Assembly (NCBI GenBank): GCA_002499585.1
Contig: DAMH01000002.1
Coordinates: 32,147-96,146, forward strand
Source: Euryarchaeota archaeon UBA552
Lineage (GTDB): Archaea; Thermoplasmatota; Poseidoniia; Poseidoniales; Thalassarchaeaceae
Direction of reading: 5' to 3'
DNA length: 64,000 nucleotides
The position numbers were made by a program, and so were the translations under genes. Every line of letters starts with the position of its first letter. The stretch's first letter is position 1. Shown in pieces: positions 8,325 through 64,000 of this stretch. Under the pieces are notes generated by a model. That model was not told where the DNA came from. It made no database searches and saw nothing but the letters and a program-made list of their open reading frames with translations.

Positions 8325-9389
8325 ATGGACTCACTATACAGCCTCTCGGATATATCTTCGATTGTCAGACAGCTACCATCGAAAGTAACATCGATATTCC
8401 AGAGAGGATCCTACATGGTGGCCGGGGATAAAGATGGATCATTGGCTTGCTGGTCGCTGGACAAAGGTAATCTTAGATGGGAAGTCGCCCTTGACCCATC
8501 TGTATCTGATATCTGCTCCGGTGGTGACTTCTTCATTGTTGCACATGGTGGTAGATTGACTTCGGTTAATATGGAGACCGGGTTATCTAGCTGGTCAACC
8601 AAACTTGATGGCGCTTCTGACTATGTTGTCTGCAACGGACGTAGTATTTGGGTCACGTCTTCAGTTTACGAAGTAGAAATTGGGGATTACACCCACTGCA
8701 AGATAACAGAAGTCGAAAAAGAATCAGGCACGATAATGTCTAGTCATAGTCTGGATTCCAAAGCCTGGGCTTTGGAGATTTTCGGGGAGGGCTGCATGAT
8801 AGGCACGGGCAGACCATCTCCTGGCGCTTACCTCCTAGACAGTGATGGAGATTGTAGAATCATAGATATGGCACCTAAACTCCCGGTCGTCAAATCCATT
8901 TTATCCCCTGAAGGCAGAATATCATTCATGACCTCACTTGGTACTGCATACGAGATTGACCAGTCGTGTAAAATTACCAACATATCGGATGATGTATCAT
9001 GCGTTGGTTATCTGCACAATGGCGATTGGATCGCCCTGTCGCAAAAAGAATACATTGACACCCTCAAAATACCTCAAGAGGACGGACAGGAATATCGATC
9101 AGAGATCATTAGTTCTGAAGAGATGACTATTATAACAAAGTGTTCCAATGAAACGAATGGTATATGGAAATCTCAAGATGATACTGTGTATTGGACCCGA
9201 GAAAGAGACGAATTAACTGCGGTAAGCGGTCAGGACCGTTACATAATCTTGGGATTTTTATCTGGAAAGATATTTGTTCTGGAAAAAGACGTAGTGTCCA
9301 GAAGATCTACTATGGGTGCGTTTTCGATGGGAAATAAATCAGAGATGATCGAAAGGCTTCGAATGTTAAGAATTGAGAAAAATGGGTAA
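8325..9389 (+). CDS. PQQ-like/WD-like beta-propeller repeat protein (function unknown)
   Basis: Repeated G-D-G-x-L-x-W-type blades (GDKDGSLACWSLDKGNLRWE, TGLSSWSTKLDG). GAGGAG Shine-Dalgarno-like sequence 4 nt upstream; no signal peptide seen. Confidence 0.45.
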   Translation: MDSLYSLSDISSIVRQLPSKVTSIFQRGSYMVAGDKDGSLACWSLDKGNLRWEVALDPSVSDICSGGDFFIVAHGGRLTSVNMETGLSSWSTKLDGASDYVVCNGRSIWVTSSVYEVEIGDYTHCKITEVEKESGTIMSSHSLDSKAWALEIFGEGCMIGTGRPSPGAYLLDSDGDCRIIDMAPKLPVVKSILSPEGRISFMTSLGTAYEIDQSCKITNISDDVSCVGYLHNGDWIALSQKEYIDTLKIPQEDGQEYRSEIISSEEMTIITKCSNETNGIWKSQDDTVYWTRERDELTAVSGQDRYIILGFLSGKIFVLEKDVVSRRSTMGAFSMGNKSEMIERLRMLRIEKNG

Positions 9390-9450
9390 ACACTCGAGTA
9401 GAAATATAGGTAGATAATCCCTTATTTCCGGTGGAATGATAGCCATTGAT

Positions 9451-9464
9451 AGAAAGATTTATGG
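9451..9464 (+). promoter_or_regulatory. BRE/TATA-like element upstream of the structured RNA locus
   Basis: AGAAAG followed by ATTTATGG. The predicted start about 25 nt downstream coincides with the first helix strand (CCGCUCCG at 9490). Confidence 0.3.
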
Positions 9465-9484
9465 ACTACCTTCGTCCCTGTTGA

Positions 9485-10140
9485 CCTTGCCGCTCCGGTG
9501 GAGTGGTGTGGGAGGGCTTCGGCGCCTCCCGCGGGCCACAATAACCGATCTAAAAGATCGGAGCGGTGGAACCGGCGGTAAAACGCTGGGGACACACTTT
9601 TTCGCTTGTGGGCGAAAAAGAGGTAGGAGAACTAAGAAAAAGAAAATCTGACGCAAGGAAGAAAATCCAATCTTAGGGAAAGCCGAGGAAAACGCAACCG
9701 AACCCTTCGGGGGGAAAACATAAACCAAACCGGAAAACTATCCTACAGAGGTGTTACGGCAAAAGGGGGAGGAGACAATCCTGGAACCGTAATGCGAGGA
9801 AAATCTGGCGTAAAAACCGGAAAAGAAACGCATCGGGAACAAGAGCGGAGAGATCCGTGGAGGACTGACATCGGACATTGAGGAAATCGAGGATAATACT
9901 CGAAGACTAAACATGTAAACGGGGGTTGTGTTGGAGACTACACGACAATCGGAAAATGATGAAGGTGGACAAGTAGCGCCTAAATCATCTACCCGGGAAC
10001 ACCCGGGCCCTCGGGCCCGGGTGAACCCCAACCGCGGAGTCAGCAGGGGGTCGCTCCCCCATAGGCAGCCCCCTGTTGCTCCCACCTGTCCATTCGGACA
10101 TTATGTGGTCCACTCTGACAGACTATCAATGATTTCCTTT
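9485..10140 (+). ncRNA. Unclassified structured RNA locus (one or several ncRNAs)
   Basis: Lies in a 797-nt ORF-free gap. Two C(UUCG)G hairpins (9510-9530, 9703-9712), a 9-bp hairpin (9597-9620) and an 8-bp CUCG hairpin (10002-10021). Also a 14-bp helix (10036-10082) and the UGUCC-AUUC-GGACA hairpin (10087-10100). Tetraloop sense and purine skew point to the + strand. Class not determined. Confidence 0.4.
9992..10021. repeat. Three clustered CCCGGG palindromes forming nested or alternative hairpins
   Basis: CCCGGG-aaca-CCCGGGCC-CUCG-GGCCCGGG, read directly from the sequence. Confidence 0.7.
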
Positions 10141-10186
10141 CGATCCCATCATACCTGCTCTTTTCGGGGATCTTGGTAACAACCAC

Positions 10187-11782
10187 CTATTCTTTTCGAT
10201 TAGTCATATCTTCTGGAACTACCCACATGTCAAAATCATGACCGCTGATTCCCATTTTGATCGCAGATTCTCGTAAGGTCAAGCCATTCTCATGTGCATG
10301 CTTGGCCACTTTCGCAGCGTTATCGTAACCTATGTGGGGATTTAGCGCGGTCACTAACATCAGTGACCTATCTACAAGCTCTGCAATCCTGTCTTTATTC
10401 GCGGATAGTCCCGCAACGCACCTGATAGCAAATGAATTACAAGAGTCCGTCAGCAATTTGCATGAGTGCAGCACATTGTGAATAATCATGGGCTTGTAGA
10501 CGTTTAGTTCGAAGTTTCCCTGACTGGAACCGATGGTAACTGCGGTGTGATTCCCTATAACCTGGCAAGCAACCATCGTCACCGCCTCTGCTTGTGTTGG
10601 GTTTACCTTACCGGGCATAATGCTCGATCCTGGCTCGTTTTCCGGTAATGACAATTCTCCCAGACCTGACCTCGGACCAGACCCCATCCATCTAATATCA
10701 TTGGCTATTTTCATCATGCTCGTAGCCAGCCCGTTCATGGAACTAGATGCTTCAAGCAAGGCGTCATGCGAAGCAAGTGCGGAAAATTTGTTGTTTGCTG
10801 AATGAAAATTTAAACCGGTTTTCTCAGCGATTCTATCACAAACTAATTCGGAAAAGTTGCTTTTTGCATTGAGTCCAGTTCCAACCGCAGTTCCGCCAAT
10901 AGCTAATGCAAGCAGCGCATCCTTCGACCTCTCGATCCTGTCTAAATCAGAGTCAAGCATTGCTACATAGCCCGAGAATTCTTGTCCCAGAGTGAGAGGA
11001 ACTGCGTCCATAAGGTGTGTTCTACCTATCTTGACGATTTCGTCGAATTCAAGCTCCTTCTTCTCCAACTCATTTCTAAGAAACTTTACGGCTGGCAACA
11101 AGCAATGTTCTATCTCTTCGGCTGCAGCAATGTGCATAGCAGTAGGAAACGTATCATTGCTGGATTGAGATCGATTCACATCATCGTTGGGGTGAACAGG
11201 ATCCTTGCTACCCAGTTCCCCCCCTACAAGTTCTATTGAACGATTAGCAATTACCTCATTTACATTCATGTTGGTTTGGGTTCCAGACCCTGTTTGCCAT
11301 ATCCTTAGTGGGAAGTGAGGGTCCAAGGCACCAGAAATTACCTCTTCGCAAGCCCGGGATATCAATTCCCCGACTTCTTCATTCATGTCACCGAGCTTGA
11401 CATTGATCTCTGCAGTTGATTGTTTGAGTATGCCGAAGGCTCTGATGACTGATCGCGGGATTCTATCCTCTCCGATGTTAAAATTCTTCATTGATCTGGC
11501 AGTTTGTGCTCCATAATAGGCTTTTATTGGAACCTCCACTGTGCCAATCGAATCCACCTCAACCCTGGTATCTCCCTGAGGATCAGTGACAACTGGTGTC
11601 GGTGATGATGAGATTGGAGCGGGAGGTTTGGGGGCGACTAGACCTTCTTCGATCAATCTTGATATAACGGCAGATCTCCCTTTTGTTCGTCCCTTGCCCA
11701 CTTTCCGATCAAGTTTCAATGCAAGCTTTTCAGGTATACTTATGCTTATGATTCGCCTATCGCCGGCGCGGTGCTTAGCCAT
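10187..11782 (-). CDS. fumC: Class II fumarate hydratase with N-terminal ribbon-helix-helix-like extension
   Basis: [13 protein letters not shown] signature, [21 protein letters not shown]. The fumarase core starts near [14 protein letters not shown]. About 70 extra N-terminal aa carry a CopG-like RHH pattern; the ATG at 11782 is the only ATG upstream of the core. Confidence 0.9.
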
Positions 11783-30153: not shown

Positions 30154-30227
30154 TGGAGCACGAGCCGGGATTTGCACCCGGGTCCACGGATCTGCAGTCC
30201 GTTGCATAGCTACTCTGCCACTCGTGC
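30154..30227 (-). tRNA. tRNA-Cys (anticodon GCA), CCA encoded
   Basis: Hand-folded. 7-bp acceptor (GCACGAG/CUCGUGC), discriminator U, anticodon arm ACGGA-CUGCAGA-UCCGU, T arm CCGGG-UGCAAAU-CCCGG. The D stem has 3 bp plus a G:A mismatch. D and T loops are non-canonical (see findings). Confidence 0.8.
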
Positions 30228-43099: not shown

Positions 43100-43106
43100 T
43101 CAATGA

Positions 43107-43802
43107 CTATACAGATTTCAAGGCATAGTTGTGCTCTAGGGCATCACCAACACTCACCCAATCCGGGGTGCTTCCATCTATCCATTCATATCGATGACCG
43201 GGTATCATTCTCCAATCATTAGGGAGTCGCTTCAATATCTCTTTCCCCCTCCCGATGCTTCTTACCTGCGAGGATGGATCCGAACCCGGTAGGTCAACCC
43301 TACCCATGCCGTTTGTGAAAAGCAGATCACCTGCGTGGAAGACCTCATGACCGTGCAGTGTGACGTGACCCGGAGCGTGACCAGGGGTATGAGTCACAGT
43401 GAGGTGAATATTACCAACCGACCATTCGACACTTAATAGAGGCGGTTGGGACCAAGTTCTGTTGAAGTCTACTTTTCCAAAAACTGGGAATTCAAGAAGT
43501 TGGGGCACTCGCGCATCCTCATGCCCCCAGACCTCCAGATCGGGGATGAGGCTGACCATCTGAGAATAGCCAGCTGTGTGATCTCTGTGGGTGTGTGTGT
43601 AAAGGATGTGGGTCGGCCTTAACCCCTGTCGCTCTAGCTCACCACACCATGCAAACGCATCAAAAGGATCGATAATTGCAACTAAATCATTGGATCTATC
43701 GATAAATGCCGTATTCATGTTCAAGTACGGACCCATCATGGTAACCCAGACCTCAACATCGCCTTCCACAATTCGTTTGTCGAACTCCCCATCACCTAAC
43801 AT
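43107..43802 (-). CDS. MBL-fold metallo-hydrolase (glyoxalase II-like)
   Basis: THTHRDH motif, HTPGHAPGH. Start trimmed to the ATG at 43802 to remove antisense overlap with leuS. Confidence 0.8.
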   Translation of the reverse strand: MLGDGEFDKRIVEGDVEVWVTMMGPYLNMNTAFIDRSNDLVAIIDPFDAFAWCGELERQGLRPTHILYTHTHRDHTAGYSQMVSLIPDLEVWGHEDARVPQLLEFPVFGKVDFNRTWSQPPLLSVEWSVGNIHLTVTHTPGHAPGHVTLHGHEVFHAGDLLFTNGMGRVDLPGSDPSSQVRSIGRGKEILKRLPNDWRMIPGHRYEWIDGSTPDWVSVGDALEHNYALKSV

Positions 43803-43868
43803 GATGCGTCCGTACCTACGGCACCTCAAAGAGGTGACCTGTGATCCGCAGGGTAAGGGAGGCGTGTA

Positions 43869-61665: not shown

Positions 61666-61810
61666 GTCACTTACCGTCTACTGCCCCATGACCACGTTGA
61701 TATGATGCTATCCCATGCTTTTCACATAAAACAGAGATATCTGCGCGGTAGATTCTCTACGAACATCAACGCATCTTCTTAATTATGGGATGGTGAAGGA
61801 GTGGTGCCTA

Positions 61811-64000
61811 ATGAGGTCAGGCCAGCGGCGGCGCAAAACTGGACAAACCTCCTTCTTGGCCCCGATAATTGCGATCATACTGATGCTATCGATGCCCTGG
61901 TCCGCTTCCCTAGACTTACGAGAAAACCATCAGCCTGCTGAGACAAACGGAATAATTTGGGGCGGGTCCGGATCTGTTGACACTGGTTGGATTACCGTAG
62001 GTTCAGACAACAATGGCACATCAACAACCATAATTCAGCACCCTCCAGGAGCCTCAATCTCAAATCTTTCATTTGAGATAGGGGTCAACGGTTCCAGAGG
62101 CGTTTGCGCACAGGACCCGATCCTTACACTCGTCGATGCCAATCAGGCAATATTCGACGGTTCAGGAATCGGGGGTTTCGGATGTAATCTGGCATATACC
62201 CCCGATCCGATAATCGATGGTTACATGGATCCATATTCTAACTCAGACTCAGGCTTCCTCCTTCCATCTGGAGCTGAGCTGACCGATCTGGTGATCCAGG
62301 CTTTGCGCCCAGCCTCACCGAGGCTGTCAAGCTCTACACCCTCCATGAGTATCCATGATACTTCGTACGATCCATCAACAGATCGGATGTTTCTTCTGGT
62401 TGACGATGACTTGTTGGTTATCGATGAAGATGTCAGCACACCAATAGTCCATGTCGAGGAAATCGCGGGAAGAGCGCTACAAGTCTTACCATCTGAAGAC
62501 CTTTTGTTAGTCATTGATCATGCAGGTCTACTCTCTTCTTACAAGCTCAGCAATACTGAACTGAAATCTACACATAATTTGAGCACAGTGGTAACCTCCA
62601 CAGCCGCCCCACTTTCGTGGAACGCAACTATTCAGACTCAAATTTATTCGGGGCAAGACAATTTCACCTGGGTGGTACATGGTTGTCATGTTTTGTGGAG
62701 GGAAATGGGAATGGCACTCGACACATGGTATAACAGAAATATCTGTATCAATGGAGAAAAACTCAGTATTTCATCAGTCTTCTTCTCCCATCAAACACTG
62801 TACCTGGGGACGGCTGGTGATGGGCTTCTAACATTTGATTACACTACGGACACGAATGGCAATCCAGACCTTATGAACCAGACCATCTACAACACCGAAT
62901 CGTCCCAGGCTCTCGTCTCGGACAGCATCACATCCATCCTGATGATGGGGGATCAGATCCTAATCGCTGGTAACGGAGGTGTCGATCGATTGCATATTCC
63001 GTCACAAACCTGGCTCAGCCCGTGGACTGTGGCGAATTGGCTAGACACGAATGAGGTATCTACACTTATCAGAACTGATAATTTTCTGCATGTTGTTACA
63101 CCGGCCAAAATACACAGATATGACACGAGAGTCCTAGCATTCGACGGAGACATAACTCCTTCCCAAGTGAATCAAACTCAATTTATATCAGCTTTTGATT
63201 GGCCTACATCACAACATGGAATTGTGACCTCCGACGGATCGGGGTCACTCTCCAGAATCGTGGATATGGTTCCAGTCGAACCGCTTGTTATAGCCAGCGG
63301 ACCGTCGATCCTCAACCCGAATGTAGTATCAGTAATTGACACTCCCTCCGGAAAGCAGAGTTGGTTTGCCAAAGACAGTGAAATAGACAGGTTCGATGAA
63401 GAGTCGAAGCGATGGCTCGGTGCTCGGGATTTCGCATCAGATGGAATTACGTCAGAAATAACCGACATCGTCCAAATTGACACATCAATAGTATTGGTAT
63501 CTACAACTGGGCATGGGATTCTGCAATTGGATTCATCCTCTGGAGATCTGCTTGGTACGATATCAGGATCAGACGTAGCCGGGATCAATGAGATGGTGTT
63601 TGATGAGGCCACAAACCTTGTATTTGTTTCCATGCCTGAATTTGGGATCGCTATCGGCAATTCCACTGATTTTGACGACTACGTATTCTACGACGAAGAT
63701 TCGGGTCTGGATTCACTGGAATTTACTGCTATGGCTTCTAGATCTGATATCCTTTTCATTGGCACTTCTGATGCAGGTGTGATAAGGATAGAGATATCCA
63801 CTGAGACTGTTTTGCCATCATGGAGGTCACTTGGGATCGACGATGTCGAAGAAGCTCCTATAGCCTATTTCGACCGTGACGACACGATATTTCTAGGACT
63901 CAAAGGCTTCGGGGTCATTATACTCGATCGATTCACTGGACAAGTCTTGCACATTTGGGATCAGGCCGACGGTTCTTTGCCTGATGATGATGTCAACGAC
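61811..64000 (+). CDS. Large secreted/surface protein, beta-propeller-like repeats (partial, runs off window)
   Basis: Open frame from the ATG at 61811 to the window end (730 codons, hand-translated, absent from the track). Basic N-terminus plus hydrophobic signal/anchor (FLAPIIAIILMLSM). Repeats end in G..LPDDDVN, like two-component-regulator propeller repeats. Confidence 0.65.
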   Translation, partial: MRSGQRRRKTGQTSFLAPIIAIILMLSMPWSASLDLRENHQPAETNGIIWGGSGSVDTGWITVGSDNNGTSTTIIQHPPGASISNLSFEIGVNGSRGVCAQDPILTLVDANQAIFDGSGIGGFGCNLAYTPDPIIDGYMDPYSNSDSGFLLPSGAELTDLVIQALRPASPRLSSSTPSMSIHDTSYDPSTDRMFLLVDDDLLVIDEDVSTPIVHVEEIAGRALQVLPSEDLLLVIDHAGLLSSYKLSNTELKSTHNLSTVVTSTAAPLSWNATIQTQIYSGQDNFTWVVHGCHVLWREMGMALDTWYNRNICINGEKLSISSVFFSHQTLYLGTAGDGLLTFDYTTDTNGNPDLMNQTIYNTESSQALVSDSITSILMMGDQILIAGNGGVDRLHIPSQTWLSPWTVANWLDTNEVSTLIRTDNFLHVVTPAKIHRYDTRVLAFDGDITPSQVNQTQFISAFDWPTSQHGIVTSDGSGSLSRIVDMVPVEPLVIASGPSILNPNVVSVIDTPSGKQSWFAKDSEIDRFDEESKRWLGARDFASDGITSEITDIVQIDTSIVLVSTTGHGILQLDSSSGDLLGTISGSDVAGINEMVFDEATNLVFVSMPEFGIAIGNSTDFDDYVFYDEDSGLDSLEFTAMASRSDILFIGTSDAGVIRIEISTETVLPSWRSLGIDDVEEAPIAYFDRDDTIFLGLKGFGVIILDRFTGQVLHIWDQADGSLPDDDVND

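What the first reader, a model, noticed from the sequence alone, without database searches (positions are those of the whole stretch)
9390..10186. 797-nt ORF-free, hairpin-dense, purine-skewed gap: candidate large structured ncRNA(s) of unknown class
Spacers elsewhere in this window are mostly under 150 nt, yet this gap between two convergent genes (beta-propeller ORF, fumC) is 797 nt. It contains only short ORFs with non-protein-like translations (runs of G/R/K or S/P). The + strand carries many thermodynamically special elements. These include two C(UUCG)G tetraloop hairpins, a perfect 9-bp hairpin, an 8-bp CUCG-capped hairpin, a 14-bp helix and a UGUCC-AUUC-GGACA hairpin. Numerous A-rich GAAA/GUAA-type joiners resemble the tertiary-contact motifs of large ribozyme-like RNAs. 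By eye I could not fit it to tRNA, 5S, RNase P or SRP consensus. It is either a divergent housekeeping RNA or an undescribed large RNA.
Basis: partly seen in the sequence, partly recalled or inferred. Interest (0 to 1): 0.75.

Follow-up and report, generated by a model that had tools for sequence, protein, structure and literature searches.

The report
Large structured RNA of marine archaea
The 797-base gap holds a gene for a roughly 600-nucleotide, intricately folded non-coding RNA that is conserved across Marine Group II archaea (abundant ocean plankton), matches no catalogued RNA family, and has no known function.

Summary
Window 9487-10086 (+) is a single-copy gene for a ~600-nt structured RNA. 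An invariant archaeal BRE/TATA promoter sits 29 nt upstream. The RNA lies in the same place (M32 peptidase - beta-propeller - RNA - fumC, convergent) in more than 35 species-level Poseidoniales (Marine Group II) genomes. It keeps 62-82% nucleotide identity where the neighbouring propeller protein keeps only 25-37%.

A 149-pair, 40-helix structure is 91% base-paired across 27 lineages, against 40-47% in register-shifted controls. It has 66 pairs with compensatory changes, against 21-29 in the controls. G.U versus A.C asymmetry points to the + strand.

The region is not coding: no ORF is conserved, 39 of 45 indels are out of frame, and there is no 3-nt periodicity. No Rfam 15 family matches. MG-II archaea already express canonical RNase P and SRP RNAs according to the literature.

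A deeply divergent clade (660-700 nt) and a ~315-nt relative on an IMG/VR "viral" contig share the promoter, the 5' hairpin, the closing helix and the 3' end.

The function is unknown. My best guess is a stable, trans-acting folded particle. Caveat: it may overlap "Tan1", a 229-nt abundant MG-IIb RNA reported in 2016, whose sequence I could not obtain.

The parts
9419..9429 (+). Conserved T-rich element CCCTTATTTCC just after the propeller stop codon. It is probably the oligo-T terminator of the propeller gene and not part of the RNA.
   Evidence: Conserved in window, L005, L015 and L018. The function is inferred.
9452..9465 (+). Archaeal-type promoter: BRE-like GAAAG followed by the TATA box ATTTATGG
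   Evidence: All 30 distinct upstream sequences have G-35, A-33, A-32 and TTTA at exactly -29 from the TTGCC motif. The same element, offset by 1 nt, is present in the viral-contig relative L084.
9487..10086 (+). The RNA gene (about 600 nt). The 5' end is inferred at about G9489. The 3' end is at or shortly after CUCCCACC (10079-10086).
   Evidence: Conservation begins and ends here in 27-29 lineages. Promoter geometry. Strand from G.U/A.C asymmetry. Covariation.
9489..9507 (+). 5' hairpin GCCGCUCC-GGU-GGAGUGGU (8 bp). It is invariant in all lineages and in L084.
   Evidence: Helix 1 is 100% paired with no variation. It was part of the search pattern, so its invariance among the hits is partly by construction.
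9508..9515 (+). 5' strand of the closing helix GUGGGAG(G), which pairs with 10078-10085
   Evidence: Compensatory differences appear in clade B (GGGGAA/UUCUCC, GGGGGG/CUCUCC) and in L084 (GUGUGCG/CGCCCAC), read.
9516..9528 (+). C(UUCG)G-capped hairpin
   Evidence: helix 3 (GC to CG swap).
9529..9535 (+). 5' strand (CCGCGGG) of a long-range helix that pairs with 10032-10037
   Evidence: helices 4-5, 96-98% paired, little variation.
9544..9621 (+). Three local hairpins of the 5' domain. The third is the 9-bp hairpin at 9598-9618.
   Evidence: helices 7-11. Helix 11 has 5 of 6 pairs with two-sided changes.
9623..9628 (+). 5' strand (GUAGGA) of a long-range helix that pairs with 9741-9746 (UCCUAC)
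   Evidence: helix 12: GC/UA/UG/CG variation, 94% paired.
9647..9662 (+). Module hairpin CU-GA-C(GCAA)G-GAA-G: a GNRA tetraloop above tandem purine-purine pairs. A second copy exists in most relatives.
   Evidence: helices 14-15 (CG/UA/UG). The repeated module is visible.
9683..9733 (+). Sub-domain holding the most conserved block, GGAAAACGCAACCGAACC-C(UUCG)G-GGGGAAAAC
   Evidence: (helices 17-22).
9750..9754 (+). 5' strand (GGUGU) of a long-range helix that pairs with 9868-9872 (ACAUC)
   Evidence: helix 23, AU to GC, 98% paired.
9792..9833 (+). Helix AUGCG/CGCAU enclosing the position of the second module, which is degenerate in this lineage
   Evidence: helix 26, CG to UA.
9834..9867 (+). 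Conserved GGGAACAAGAGC - GAGA-capped hairpin (9845-9858) - GUGGAGGAC
   Evidence: helices 27-29 (AU to GC, GC to AU). Conserved blocks.
9887..9903 (+). Hairpin UCGAG-GAUAAUA-CUCGA with a conserved 7-nt loop
   Evidence: helix 31: all 5 pairs have two-sided changes.
9956..9988 (+). Hairpin domain AUGAU...AUCAU enclosing GGUGG...GCGCC
   Evidence: helices 35-36.
9988..9999 (+). Invariant stretch UCUACCCGGGAA, which contains the palindrome CCCGGG. Its pairing partner is uncertain.
   Evidence: helix 37 only 82% paired, no covariation.
10000..10023 (+). GC-rich CUCG-capped hairpin, replaced by different but still paired sequences in other lineages
   Evidence: helix 38, 5 pairs with two-sided changes.
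10032..10040 (+). 3' strand of the long-range helix (CC-GCGG) plus the invariant GGAGU
10043..10076 (+). 3' terminal hairpin GCAGGGGG...CCCCCUGU
   Evidence: helix 39 (97.6% paired). Fully covarying versions in clade B.
10078..10085 (+). 3' strand of the closing helix, GCUCCCAC
10088..10101 (+). Lineage-specific hairpin UGUCC-AUUC-GGACA just past the conserved 3' end. Other lineages have T-runs here, so this is a possible terminator region.
   Evidence: columns 801-830. The function is inferred.

Best explanation
Window 9487-10086 (+ strand) is an independently transcribed, single-copy gene for a ~600-nt stable non-coding RNA. The RNA belongs to a family specific to Marine Group II archaea (order Poseidoniales) and absent from Rfam. 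An invariant BRE/TATA promoter starts transcription at about G9489. The transcript folds into a closed architecture. An invariant 5' hairpin sits next to a helix that pairs the 5' region with the 3' end. Inside are nested long-range helices that create several multi-way junctions. These carry about 20 hairpins, many capped by GNRA or UUCG loops and joined by A-rich or GAA-rich linkers. I infer, but have not shown, that it acts in trans as a folded particle: a protein-binding scaffold or an RNA-only assembly. I do not think it acts by antisense pairing or by cis-regulating its neighbours. The invariant 5' hairpin, closing helix and 3' end would form the functional or recognition core. The interior modules are expandable, because they are duplicated, lost or replaced between lineages and are reduced to about 315 nt in a relative on a virus-classified contig.
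For: Shown:
- Identical synteny and single copy in all loci recovered.
- The RNA keeps 62-82% nucleotide identity, while the adjacent propeller keeps 25-37% and M32 60-75% amino-acid identity.
- The promoter has TTTA at exactly -29 in 30 of 30 distinct upstream sequences.
- The 149-pair structure is 91.3% paired against 40-47% when partners are slid. It has 66 pairs with two-sided changes against 21-29, and a covariation score of 0.237 against 0.055-0.077. No shuffle of 500 reaches the observed values.
- Strand: 353 G.U cells against 72 A.C cells. Fold z = -4.3 on the + strand against -1.8 on the - strand.
- Not coding.
- No Rfam match.
- RNase P RNA and SRP RNA are already accounted for in MG-II (PMC5069720).
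- The core is retained and the interior varies in clade B, in L030 and L034 and in L084.

Suggestive of transcription:
- A 144-aa 'protein' (ERR1739841_481709, source 'merc') is a translation of the + strand starting at the predicted 5' end.
- From my own knowledge, MERC was assembled from Tara Oceans metatranscriptomes. Its N-terminal 'MG' equals ...ATGGG (a SMART template-switch oligo end) joined to GCCGCUCC.

The RNA lies between convergent genes, downstream of a likely terminator and with its own promoter. That argues against a role as a leader or UTR.
Against: - There is no direct expression data. No read mapping was possible, and the 3' end is only inferred.
- No partner protein, target or activity is known.
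- The 5' hairpin and most of the closing helix are invariant within the main clade. Support for them rests on a few cross-clade differences read by eye.
- Invariance of the 5' hairpin among the hits is partly by construction, because it was the search pattern.
- An alternative pairing of the 3' CUCC with the upstream GGAG (10036-10039) is equally compatible with the sequences.
- 'Scaffold or particle' is a default inference for a large ornate RNA, not a tested mechanism.
- Large, complex, highly conserved RNAs have often turned out to be ribozymes.
Confidence: 0.55

Rival explanations
1. It is the already reported 'Tan1' (Thalassoarchaea ncRNA 1), its precursor, or the full-length form of it. 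Tan1 is a 229-nt, highly abundant MG-IIb ncRNA with a complex predicted structure, found by metatranscriptomic dRNA-seq in the Red Sea. Under this reading the family is partly known. What would be new is its true length, distribution, architecture and viral relative.
For: PMC5069720 describes Tan1 as an unknown ncRNA of MG-II, ranked 5th in RNA-seq. Its homologs occur only in Ca. Thalassoarchaea (MG-IIb) at 75-79% identity, and it has a complex conserved structure. Lineage, identity range and structural complexity all fit. In every MG-IIb lineage the second C(UUCG)G hairpin ends 228-233 nt from the 5' motif, which matches the reported 229 nt. That could be a processing site or a coverage end.
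Against: The lengths differ (229 nt against 600-650 nt). Covariation supports helices that join the first 229 nt to the rest, for example 9623-9628:9741-9746 and the 5'/3' closing helix. With about 20 hairpins in the RNA, one ending near position 229 by chance is not rare (roughly 1 in 6 by my estimate). The Tan1 sequence, coordinates and figure were not retrievable, so no comparison was made.
Confidence: 0.35
2. It is a ribozyme: a large catalytic RNA whose conserved junctions and unpaired blocks (for example GGGAACAAGAGC...GUGGAGGAC, AACCGAACC...GGGGAAAAC) form an active site.
For: The size, the ornate multi-junction fold, the GNRA/UUCG loops and A-rich joiners, and the very high conservation of some unpaired stretches. 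From general knowledge, most large highly structured RNAs whose functions are known are ribozymes.
Against: No known ribozyme family in Rfam matches. There is no obvious substrate context: it is not in an intron, not flanked by exons and not repeated. Whole interior domains are lost or replaced between lineages and in L084. OLE, GOLLD and ROOL show that large ornate RNAs need not be known ribozymes (bioRxiv 10.1101/2024.12.08.627333, listed; the rest is my own knowledge).
Confidence: 0.15
3. It is a cis-acting element of the neighbouring genes: a long structured 3' UTR of the propeller gene, or an antisense or termination insulator for the convergent fumC gene.
For: It is on the same strand as the propeller gene, immediately downstream of it, in every genome. 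It lies between convergent genes.
Against: It has its own invariant promoter at a fixed distance, and a T-rich element lies after the propeller stop. The RNA is far better conserved than the propeller gene. The spacer between the RNA's 3' end and fumC is unconserved and variable. The L084 relative has neither neighbour. In the lineage of L091/L092, fumC exists without the RNA beside it.
Confidence: 0.05
4. It encodes a small G/R/K-rich protein, as some gene callers and one NCBI MAG annotation assume.
For: ORFs of 83-233 aa are called here in several assemblies (P0123-P0133; MAO53897.1 'hypothetical protein').
Against: The longest open frame changes strand and frame between lineages. 39 of 45 distinct indels are not multiples of three. 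Variable columns are spread evenly over the three codon positions (122/122/116 of 200 each). The translations are low-complexity, and no Pfam domain is on record. Base-pair covariation explains the conservation.
Confidence: 0.02
5. It is a highly divergent RNase P RNA or SRP RNA.
For: It is a large, closed (5'/3'-paired), conserved, single-copy RNA in an archaeon.
Against: RF00373, RF01857 and all other models give nothing even at E<=10 on 1.2 kb or in relatives. Canonical RNase P RNA and SRP RNA of MG-II are expressed and match those Rfam models (PMC5069720).
Confidence: 0.02

Closest known systems
Tan1 (Thalassoarchaea ncRNA 1; Hou et al. 2016, Sci Rep 6:35470, PMC5069720)
   Same: An orphan ncRNA of Marine Group IIb archaea with homologs only in that lineage at about 75-79% identity. 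It has a complex conserved secondary structure and unknown function. Its reported length of 229 nt coincides with the end of a conserved UUCG hairpin 228-233 nt into this RNA.
   Different: Tan1 is reported as 229 nt, whereas this RNA is 600-650 nt with covariation-supported helices spanning its whole length. Tan1 is not in Rfam.
OLE RNA (about 610 nt, extremophilic Firmicutes; Rfam RF01071)
   Same: Similar size, ornate multi-helix fold, lineage-restricted, single-copy and highly conserved. It is a trans-acting RNA of still unclear biochemical function that works with partner proteins (my own knowledge).
   Different: No sequence or structure similarity (no Rfam hit). OLE is bacterial and sits in an operon with its partner-protein genes. 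Here the neighbours are a fast-evolving propeller and fumC, with no evident link.
GOLLD and ROOL RNAs (large ornate bacterial RNAs, often in prophages; form RNA-only multimeric cages by cryo-EM, bioRxiv 10.1101/2024.12.08.627333)
   Same: Large (about 580-800 nt) and richly structured, with unknown function. Relatives occur on virus-like DNA; here that is one IMG/VR contig, L084.
   Different: No Rfam match. This RNA is archaeal and sits at a fixed chromosomal locus inherited vertically across an order. There are no adjacent tRNA genes. Multimerisation was not tested.
Archaeal RNase P RNA (RF00373)
   Same: A closed architecture in which the 5' and 3' regions pair. It has multi-way junctions, GNRA loops, a single copy and its own promoter.
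   Different: About twice the size. There is no P4 pseudoknot or CR-I/CR-V signature recognisable to the covariance model. MG-II already has a canonical RNase P RNA.

Membership tests
Archaeal RNase P RNA (RF00373 and other RNase P models) | Match to the covariance model, which encodes the P4 pseudoknot region and the conserved CR-I/CR-V sequences | tested here: not met
   No hit at gathering threshold in the window. No hit at E<=10 on 9200-10400. No hit at E<=5 in four related loci.
Archaeal RNase P RNA | It is the organism's only RNase P RNA, so that role would have to be unfilled | tested here: not met
   PMC5069720 reports nine expressed 292-306-nt MG-II RNAs matching RF00373. I could not scan the whole genome of this organism.
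Archaeal SRP RNA (RF01857) | Match to the covariance model, including the helix 8 SRP54-binding loops and the Alu domain | tested here: not met
   no hit. PMC5069720 reports canonical 305-315-nt SRP RNAs in MG-II.
Group I / group II introns and other known ribozymes in Rfam | Model match (for example group II domain V); intron context or multiple mobile copies | tested here: not met
   No Rfam hit. One copy per genome at a fixed syntenic site. No reverse-transcriptase or homing-endonuclease ORF nearby.
Known large bacterial ncRNAs (OLE, GOLLD, ROOL, HEARO, raiA, IMES) | Match to the Rfam covariance model | tested here: not met
   no hit to any of the 4227 families.
tRNA / tmRNA | Cloverleaf or tmRNA detected by ARAGORN or Rfam | tested here: not met
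   The only tRNA in the window is tRNA-Cys at 30154-30227.
Tan1 (Hou et al. 2016) | Sequence similarity to the published Tan1 sequence | not testable with these tools
   The sequence, figure and Table S5 are not held.
Tan1 (Hou et al. 2016) | Restricted to MG-IIb (Thalassoarchaea), with homologs at about 75-79% identity and a complex conserved structure | tested here: met
   The host lineage is Thalassarchaeaceae by the fumC names. Inter-clade identity is 62-82%. Complex structure.
Tan1 (Hou et al. 2016) | Length 229 nt | tested here: inconclusive
   The conserved RNA is 598-654 nt in most MG-IIb lineages (473 and 575 nt in two), but a conserved hairpin ends at nt 228-233.
Independent structured ncRNA gene (generic) | Own promoter at a fixed distance | tested here: met
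   GAAAgrTTTAw with TTTA at -29 in 30 of 30 distinct sequences.
Independent structured ncRNA gene (generic) | Base-pair covariation beyond controls, with strand asymmetry | tested here: met
Independent structured ncRNA gene (generic) | Transcribed as a discrete RNA | tested here: inconclusive
   Indirect evidence only. The MERC entry ERR1739841_481709 is a translation of the + strand from the predicted 5' end. That MERC derives from metatranscriptomes is from my memory.
Protein-coding gene | Conserved reading frame, in-frame indels and 3-nt periodicity of substitutions | tested here: not met

The most novel reading that the evidence does not exclude
This is the first large 'ornate' non-coding RNA class known from Archaea. 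It is an order-wide, vertically inherited 470-700-nt RNA of the globally abundant Marine Group II plankton. Its conserved core (promoter, 5' hairpin, closing helix, 3' hairpin and CCCACC end) is also carried, in a ~315-nt miniature form, by a putative virus of these archaea. That would imply a function relevant to virus-host interaction, or a self-assembling RNA particle of the kind recently seen for GOLLD and ROOL. It would be distinct from Tan1, or would show Tan1 to be a fragment of it.
Probability: 0.3. Interest if true: 0.9.

Novelty: categorically new. Interest (0 to 1): 0.78.

Why it matters
Large, intricately folded RNAs with no known function are rare. Only a handful of bacterial classes are known, and to my knowledge none is known from Archaea apart from rRNA, RNase P RNA and SRP RNA. 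Historically such RNAs have turned out to be ribozymes, RNP cores or, recently, self-assembling RNA cages.

This one is conserved across an entire order of uncultured archaea that make up a large share of surface-ocean prokaryotes. Whatever it does is therefore likely central to their biology.

The region is currently unannotated, or mis-annotated as hypothetical proteins, in public MAGs. The covariation-supported model and the natural size variants (473 to about 700 nt, plus a ~315-nt relative) define a minimal core. That core can go directly into in vitro folding, cryo-EM and activity assays without culturing the organism. A covariance model would also improve MAG annotation and could serve as a lineage marker.

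Tried and rejected
- Rfam at gathering and permissive thresholds on the window, the region, four related loci and L084 gave nothing relevant. The only hits were chance ones at E of about 1-6 to lncRNA or miRNA fragments.
- ARAGORN found no tRNA or tmRNA in the gap.
- The sigma-70 promoter and intrinsic-terminator scan was uninformative for an archaeon.
- The search for related loci with the propeller protein on genome contigs found no relatives, because the protein evolves too fast.
- The metagenome scan for the divergent clade's 5' motif returned 23 stretches, of which only 3 were real (L061, L066, L075).
- The second viral scan gave four false positives in terminase genes, where the APKEWW peptide encodes the motif.
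- BLAST of the RNA and of L084 against GenBank phages found no match.
- mafft-qinsi was unavailable. The first whole-alignment helix search that included the divergent clade was too noisy, so I redid it on the 25 main-clade sequences.
- Retrieval of the Tan1 sequence from the paper and its supplements failed.
- Literature searches for any description of this RNA found none.
- Ideas considered by eye and dropped:
  - C/D-box sRNA. An AUGAUGA at about 9955 is not conserved.
  - Anti-Shine-Dalgarno mimicry by GGAGUGGUG. The pairing is poor.
  - Group II domain V likeness of the GAGA hairpin. It has only 5 bp and the wrong shape.
  - A G-quadruplex in GGAAGGGGAAGGAAG. It is absent in the window lineage.
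- Short contigs carrying spurious ORFs (L082, L083) were metagenomic, not transcripts.
Full report
**1. The observation**

The propeller-like ORF (8325-9389, +; PQQ_2/beta-propeller Pfam hits) and a class II fumarase gene (10187-11782, -) converge on a 797-nt gap. The gap holds only short ORFs with low-complexity translations. As single-stranded RNA the + strand folds 4.3 sd better than dinucleotide shuffles. The - strand folds only 1.8 sd better. Typical spacers in the window are short: the median is about 40 nt between ORFs of at least 110 aa. Most other apparent gaps contain plausible small genes.

**2. Host and synteny**

PolD (DP2) lies nearby, and the fumarase's closest relatives are named Candidatus Thalassarchaeaceae or Thalassarchaeum. 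All contigs come from marine metagenomes. The host is therefore a Marine Group II (Poseidoniales, MG-IIb) archaeon.

The gene order is M32 carboxypeptidase - propeller - gap - fumC (reverse) - PPIase ... PolD. It recurs in every related contig I fetched. The gap is always about 780-1265 nt.

**3. The gap is conserved as nucleotide sequence, not as protein**

Between the window and the L005 lineage the propeller protein is 25% identical, M32 60%, fumC 68% and PPIase 44%. The gap still aligns at 65% nucleotide identity, with long identical blocks.

A 5' motif pattern found one copy in each of 35 GTDB species-representative genomes. All are Poseidoniales or 'Euryarchaeota archaeon' MAGs. One 3-kb contig is labelled Rhodospirillaceae, but it carries the MG-II neighbours and is misbinned.

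After removing near-duplicates there are 27 distinct sequences (alignment A3). The conserved unit runs from TTGCCGCTCC (window 9487) to CTCCCACC (10079-10086). It is 598-654 nt in most MG-IIb lineages, 473 nt in L030 and 575 nt in L034. It is 660-700 nt in a deeply divergent clade B (L021, L028/L075, L061, L089), whose members are only about 60% identical to each other.

**4. Promoter, ends and strand**

All 30 distinct upstream sequences carry GAAAgrTTTAw, with TTTA exactly 29 nt before TTGCC. This is the geometry of an archaeal BRE/TATA promoter (established knowledge). It places the start at about G9489.

A Plass-assembled 'protein' from source 'merc' (ERR1739841_481709) is a straight translation of the + strand. 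It begins MGPLRGSGVG..., which corresponds to ATG-GGG-CCG-CTC.... From memory, MERC derives from Tara Oceans metatranscriptomes and SMART template-switch oligos end in ...ACATGGG. If both are right, this is a cDNA 5' end at GCCGCUCC. I treat this as suggestive only.

Downstream of CCCACC most lineages have T-runs. The window lineage has a small hairpin instead.

G.U pairs (353 cells) far outnumber A.C pairs (72). The structure is 91.3% canonical on the + strand but would be 83.9% canonical on the - strand. The RNA is therefore on the + strand.

**5. Not coding**

The longest open frame changes strand and frame from lineage to lineage. 39 of 45 distinct indels are not multiples of three. Variable columns are spread equally over the three phases. 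Gene callers nevertheless call G/R/K-rich ORFs here in several assemblies, including one NCBI 'hypothetical protein'. These are mis-annotations.

**6. Structure**

RNAalifold on the 25 main-clade sequences gives a closed, nested architecture. I projected it onto A3 and counted pairs.

| Measure | Proposed structure | Partners slid by 1-3 columns |
|---|---|---|
| Cells forming a standard pair | 91.3% | 40-47% |
| Pairs with changes on both sides | 66 | 21-29 |
| Covariation score | 0.237 | 0.055-0.077 |

The structure has 149 pairs in 40 helices. None of 500 column shuffles reaches the observed values.

Well-supported elements, in window coordinates:
- Hairpins: 9602-9615, 9845-9858 (GAGA loop), 9887-9903 (all five pairs covary), 9956-9988 and about 10000-10023.
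- Long-range helices: 9623-9628:9741-9746, 9750-9754:9868-9872 and 9792-9796:9829-9833.
- 3' hairpin: 10043-10076.

The invariant 5' hairpin (9489-9507) and the long-range helix 9529-9535:10032-10037 are consistent but uninformative within the main clade.

The closing helix 9508-9515:10078-10085 (GUGGGAG/CUCCCAC) is also invariant there. It shows compensatory differences in clade B (GGGGAA/UUCUCC, GGGGGG/CUCUCC) and in L084 (GUGUGCG/CGCCCAC), which I read.

A competing pairing of the 3' CUCC with GGAG at 10036-10039 cannot be excluded.

A small module, CC-GGA-C(GCAA)G-GAA-GG, consists of a GNRA loop over tandem purine-purine pairs. It occurs twice in most lineages. The segment between the two copies is missing in L030, and the second copy is degenerate in the window. 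GAACC and GGAAG are enriched 3-6 fold in the joiners.

**7. A relative outside the locus**

One IMG/VR contig (L084, 72 kb) has the following features:
- AAGGTTTAT at -28, followed by TTGCCGCTCCTGTGGAGTGGTGTG.
- An ORF-free stretch rich in GAGA- and UUCG-capped hairpins.
- About 315 nt downstream, ...ACGCAGGGAAGGACTGCGCCCACC, a shortened version of the 3' hairpin and end.
- None of the MG-II neighbour genes.

Its surroundings are small ORFans plus a NUDIX hydrolase. An array of 15-nt repeats lies just upstream.

The 22-nt match alone could be chance in a database of that size. The promoter at the right distance and the matching 3' end make chance very unlikely; by my estimate each has odds below 1e-4. 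I could not verify that the contig is viral, and it has no GenBank phage relative.

**8. What it is not**

No Rfam 15 family matches, even at E<=10 on the 1.2-kb region. Hou et al. 2016 (PMC5069720) found canonical RNase P RNA and SRP RNA of MG-II expressed in situ, so those roles are taken. The RNA is single-copy and syntenic, so it is not a mobile intron or repeat. It has its own promoter, lies between convergent genes and is better conserved than its neighbours. That argues against a UTR or antisense role. One lineage (L091/L092) has fumC without the RNA beside it.

**9. What it most likely does**

What is shown is a conserved, structured, promoter-equipped RNA gene. What follows is inferred.

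The pattern is an invariant core with interior domains that expand or can be lost, many tetraloops and A-rich junctions, and no conserved complementarity to the neighbours. That pattern fits a stable trans-acting folded particle, either a protein scaffold or an RNA-only assembly, better than a base-pairing regulator. A ribozyme remains a serious alternative. I put about 0.9 on 'genuine independent structured ncRNA gene' and about 0.4-0.5 on 'architectural or RNP particle' given that.

**10. Comparison with the known, and novelty**

The only candidate prior description is Tan1, a 229-nt abundant MG-IIb ncRNA from the same 2016 paper. I could not get its sequence. The conserved second UUCG hairpin ends 228-233 nt from the 5' end in all MG-IIb lineages. 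Tan1 could therefore be the 5' third of this RNA, and I give that about 35%.

Even then the following would be new: the full 600-nt unit, its order-wide distribution, the covariation-supported fold, the divergent clade and the virus-contig relative. Nothing else in the searchable literature describes it.

In kind it resembles the bacterial large ornate RNAs (OLE, GOLLD, ROOL), but it is not a member of any of those families.

**11. Limits**

- No read mapping was possible.
- The family distribution outside the exact 5' motif is unknown.
- The alignments are MAFFT-based rather than structure-based. The structure was derived from the same sequences on which it was counted, which inflates the 'cells paired' measure more than the compensatory-change counts.

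Noticed in passing
window 10187-11782 (-), N-terminal about 50 aa of the product: The class II fumarase carries an N-terminal ribbon-helix-helix (CopG/RHH_1) DNA-binding domain (Pfam E=1.8e-4, above the cut-off). All close MG-II homologs share the same ~530-aa length. This is an enzyme-regulator fusion that I have not seen described.
   Followed up: partly
window 8325-9389 (+): The beta-propeller gene always sits immediately upstream of the RNA on the same strand, but it evolves very fast (25-37% amino-acid identity between lineages where fumC keeps 65-75%). The 5.8-billion-protein search found only one remote homolog cluster.
   Followed up: partly
L084:1326-1469: About 7-10 tandem copies of a 15-nt unit (AAATTTGTAGCCATG) lie immediately upstream of the RNA-like gene on the IMG/VR contig. 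They look like iterons, so this may be an origin or a protein-binding array.
   Followed up: no
L030:2735-3247 and L034:749-1363: Natural deletion variants of the RNA. L030 (473 nt) lacks everything between the two CCGGAC(GCAA)GGAAGG modules, including the most conserved block. L034 (Ca. Thalassarchaeum betae, 575 nt) lacks the GGGAACAAGAGC...GUGGAGGAC region and has an expanded GGAAGGGGAAGG repeat. Repeat collapse during assembly cannot be excluded for L030.
   Followed up: partly
L091 and L092, 4086-6228: In the lineage of fumC P0105, the gene after fumC is a cysteine dioxygenase-like ORF. There is no gap and no 5' motif within 6.6 kb, so the RNA is absent from this locus there (either lost or moved).
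   Followed up: partly
window 43100-43868 and 61666-63177: Two other stretches (about 770 nt and 1.5 kb) lack a convincing ORF of 110 aa or more on either strand. Neither has an Rfam hit. They could be pseudogenes, small genes or further non-coding RNAs.
   Followed up: no
L027 (CAYTJO010000178.1): A 3.2-kb contig binned as 'uncultured Rhodospirillaceae bacterium' carries the MG-II M32 peptidase, the propeller and the RNA's 5' end. It is a misbinned archaeal contig.
   Followed up: yes
RNA region in public MAGs (P0123-P0133; MAO53897.1): Gene callers translate the purine-rich RNA into G/R/K-rich 'hypothetical proteins' of 83-233 aa in several assemblies. These entries are almost certainly spurious.
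   Followed up: yes
window 9469-9486 and homologous positions: The stretch between the TATA box and the inferred start (GCCCTGTTGAC) is 80-97% conserved in the main clade but not in clade B. That is unusual for a spacer and may mark a regulator site or an initiator-proximal element.
   Followed up: no
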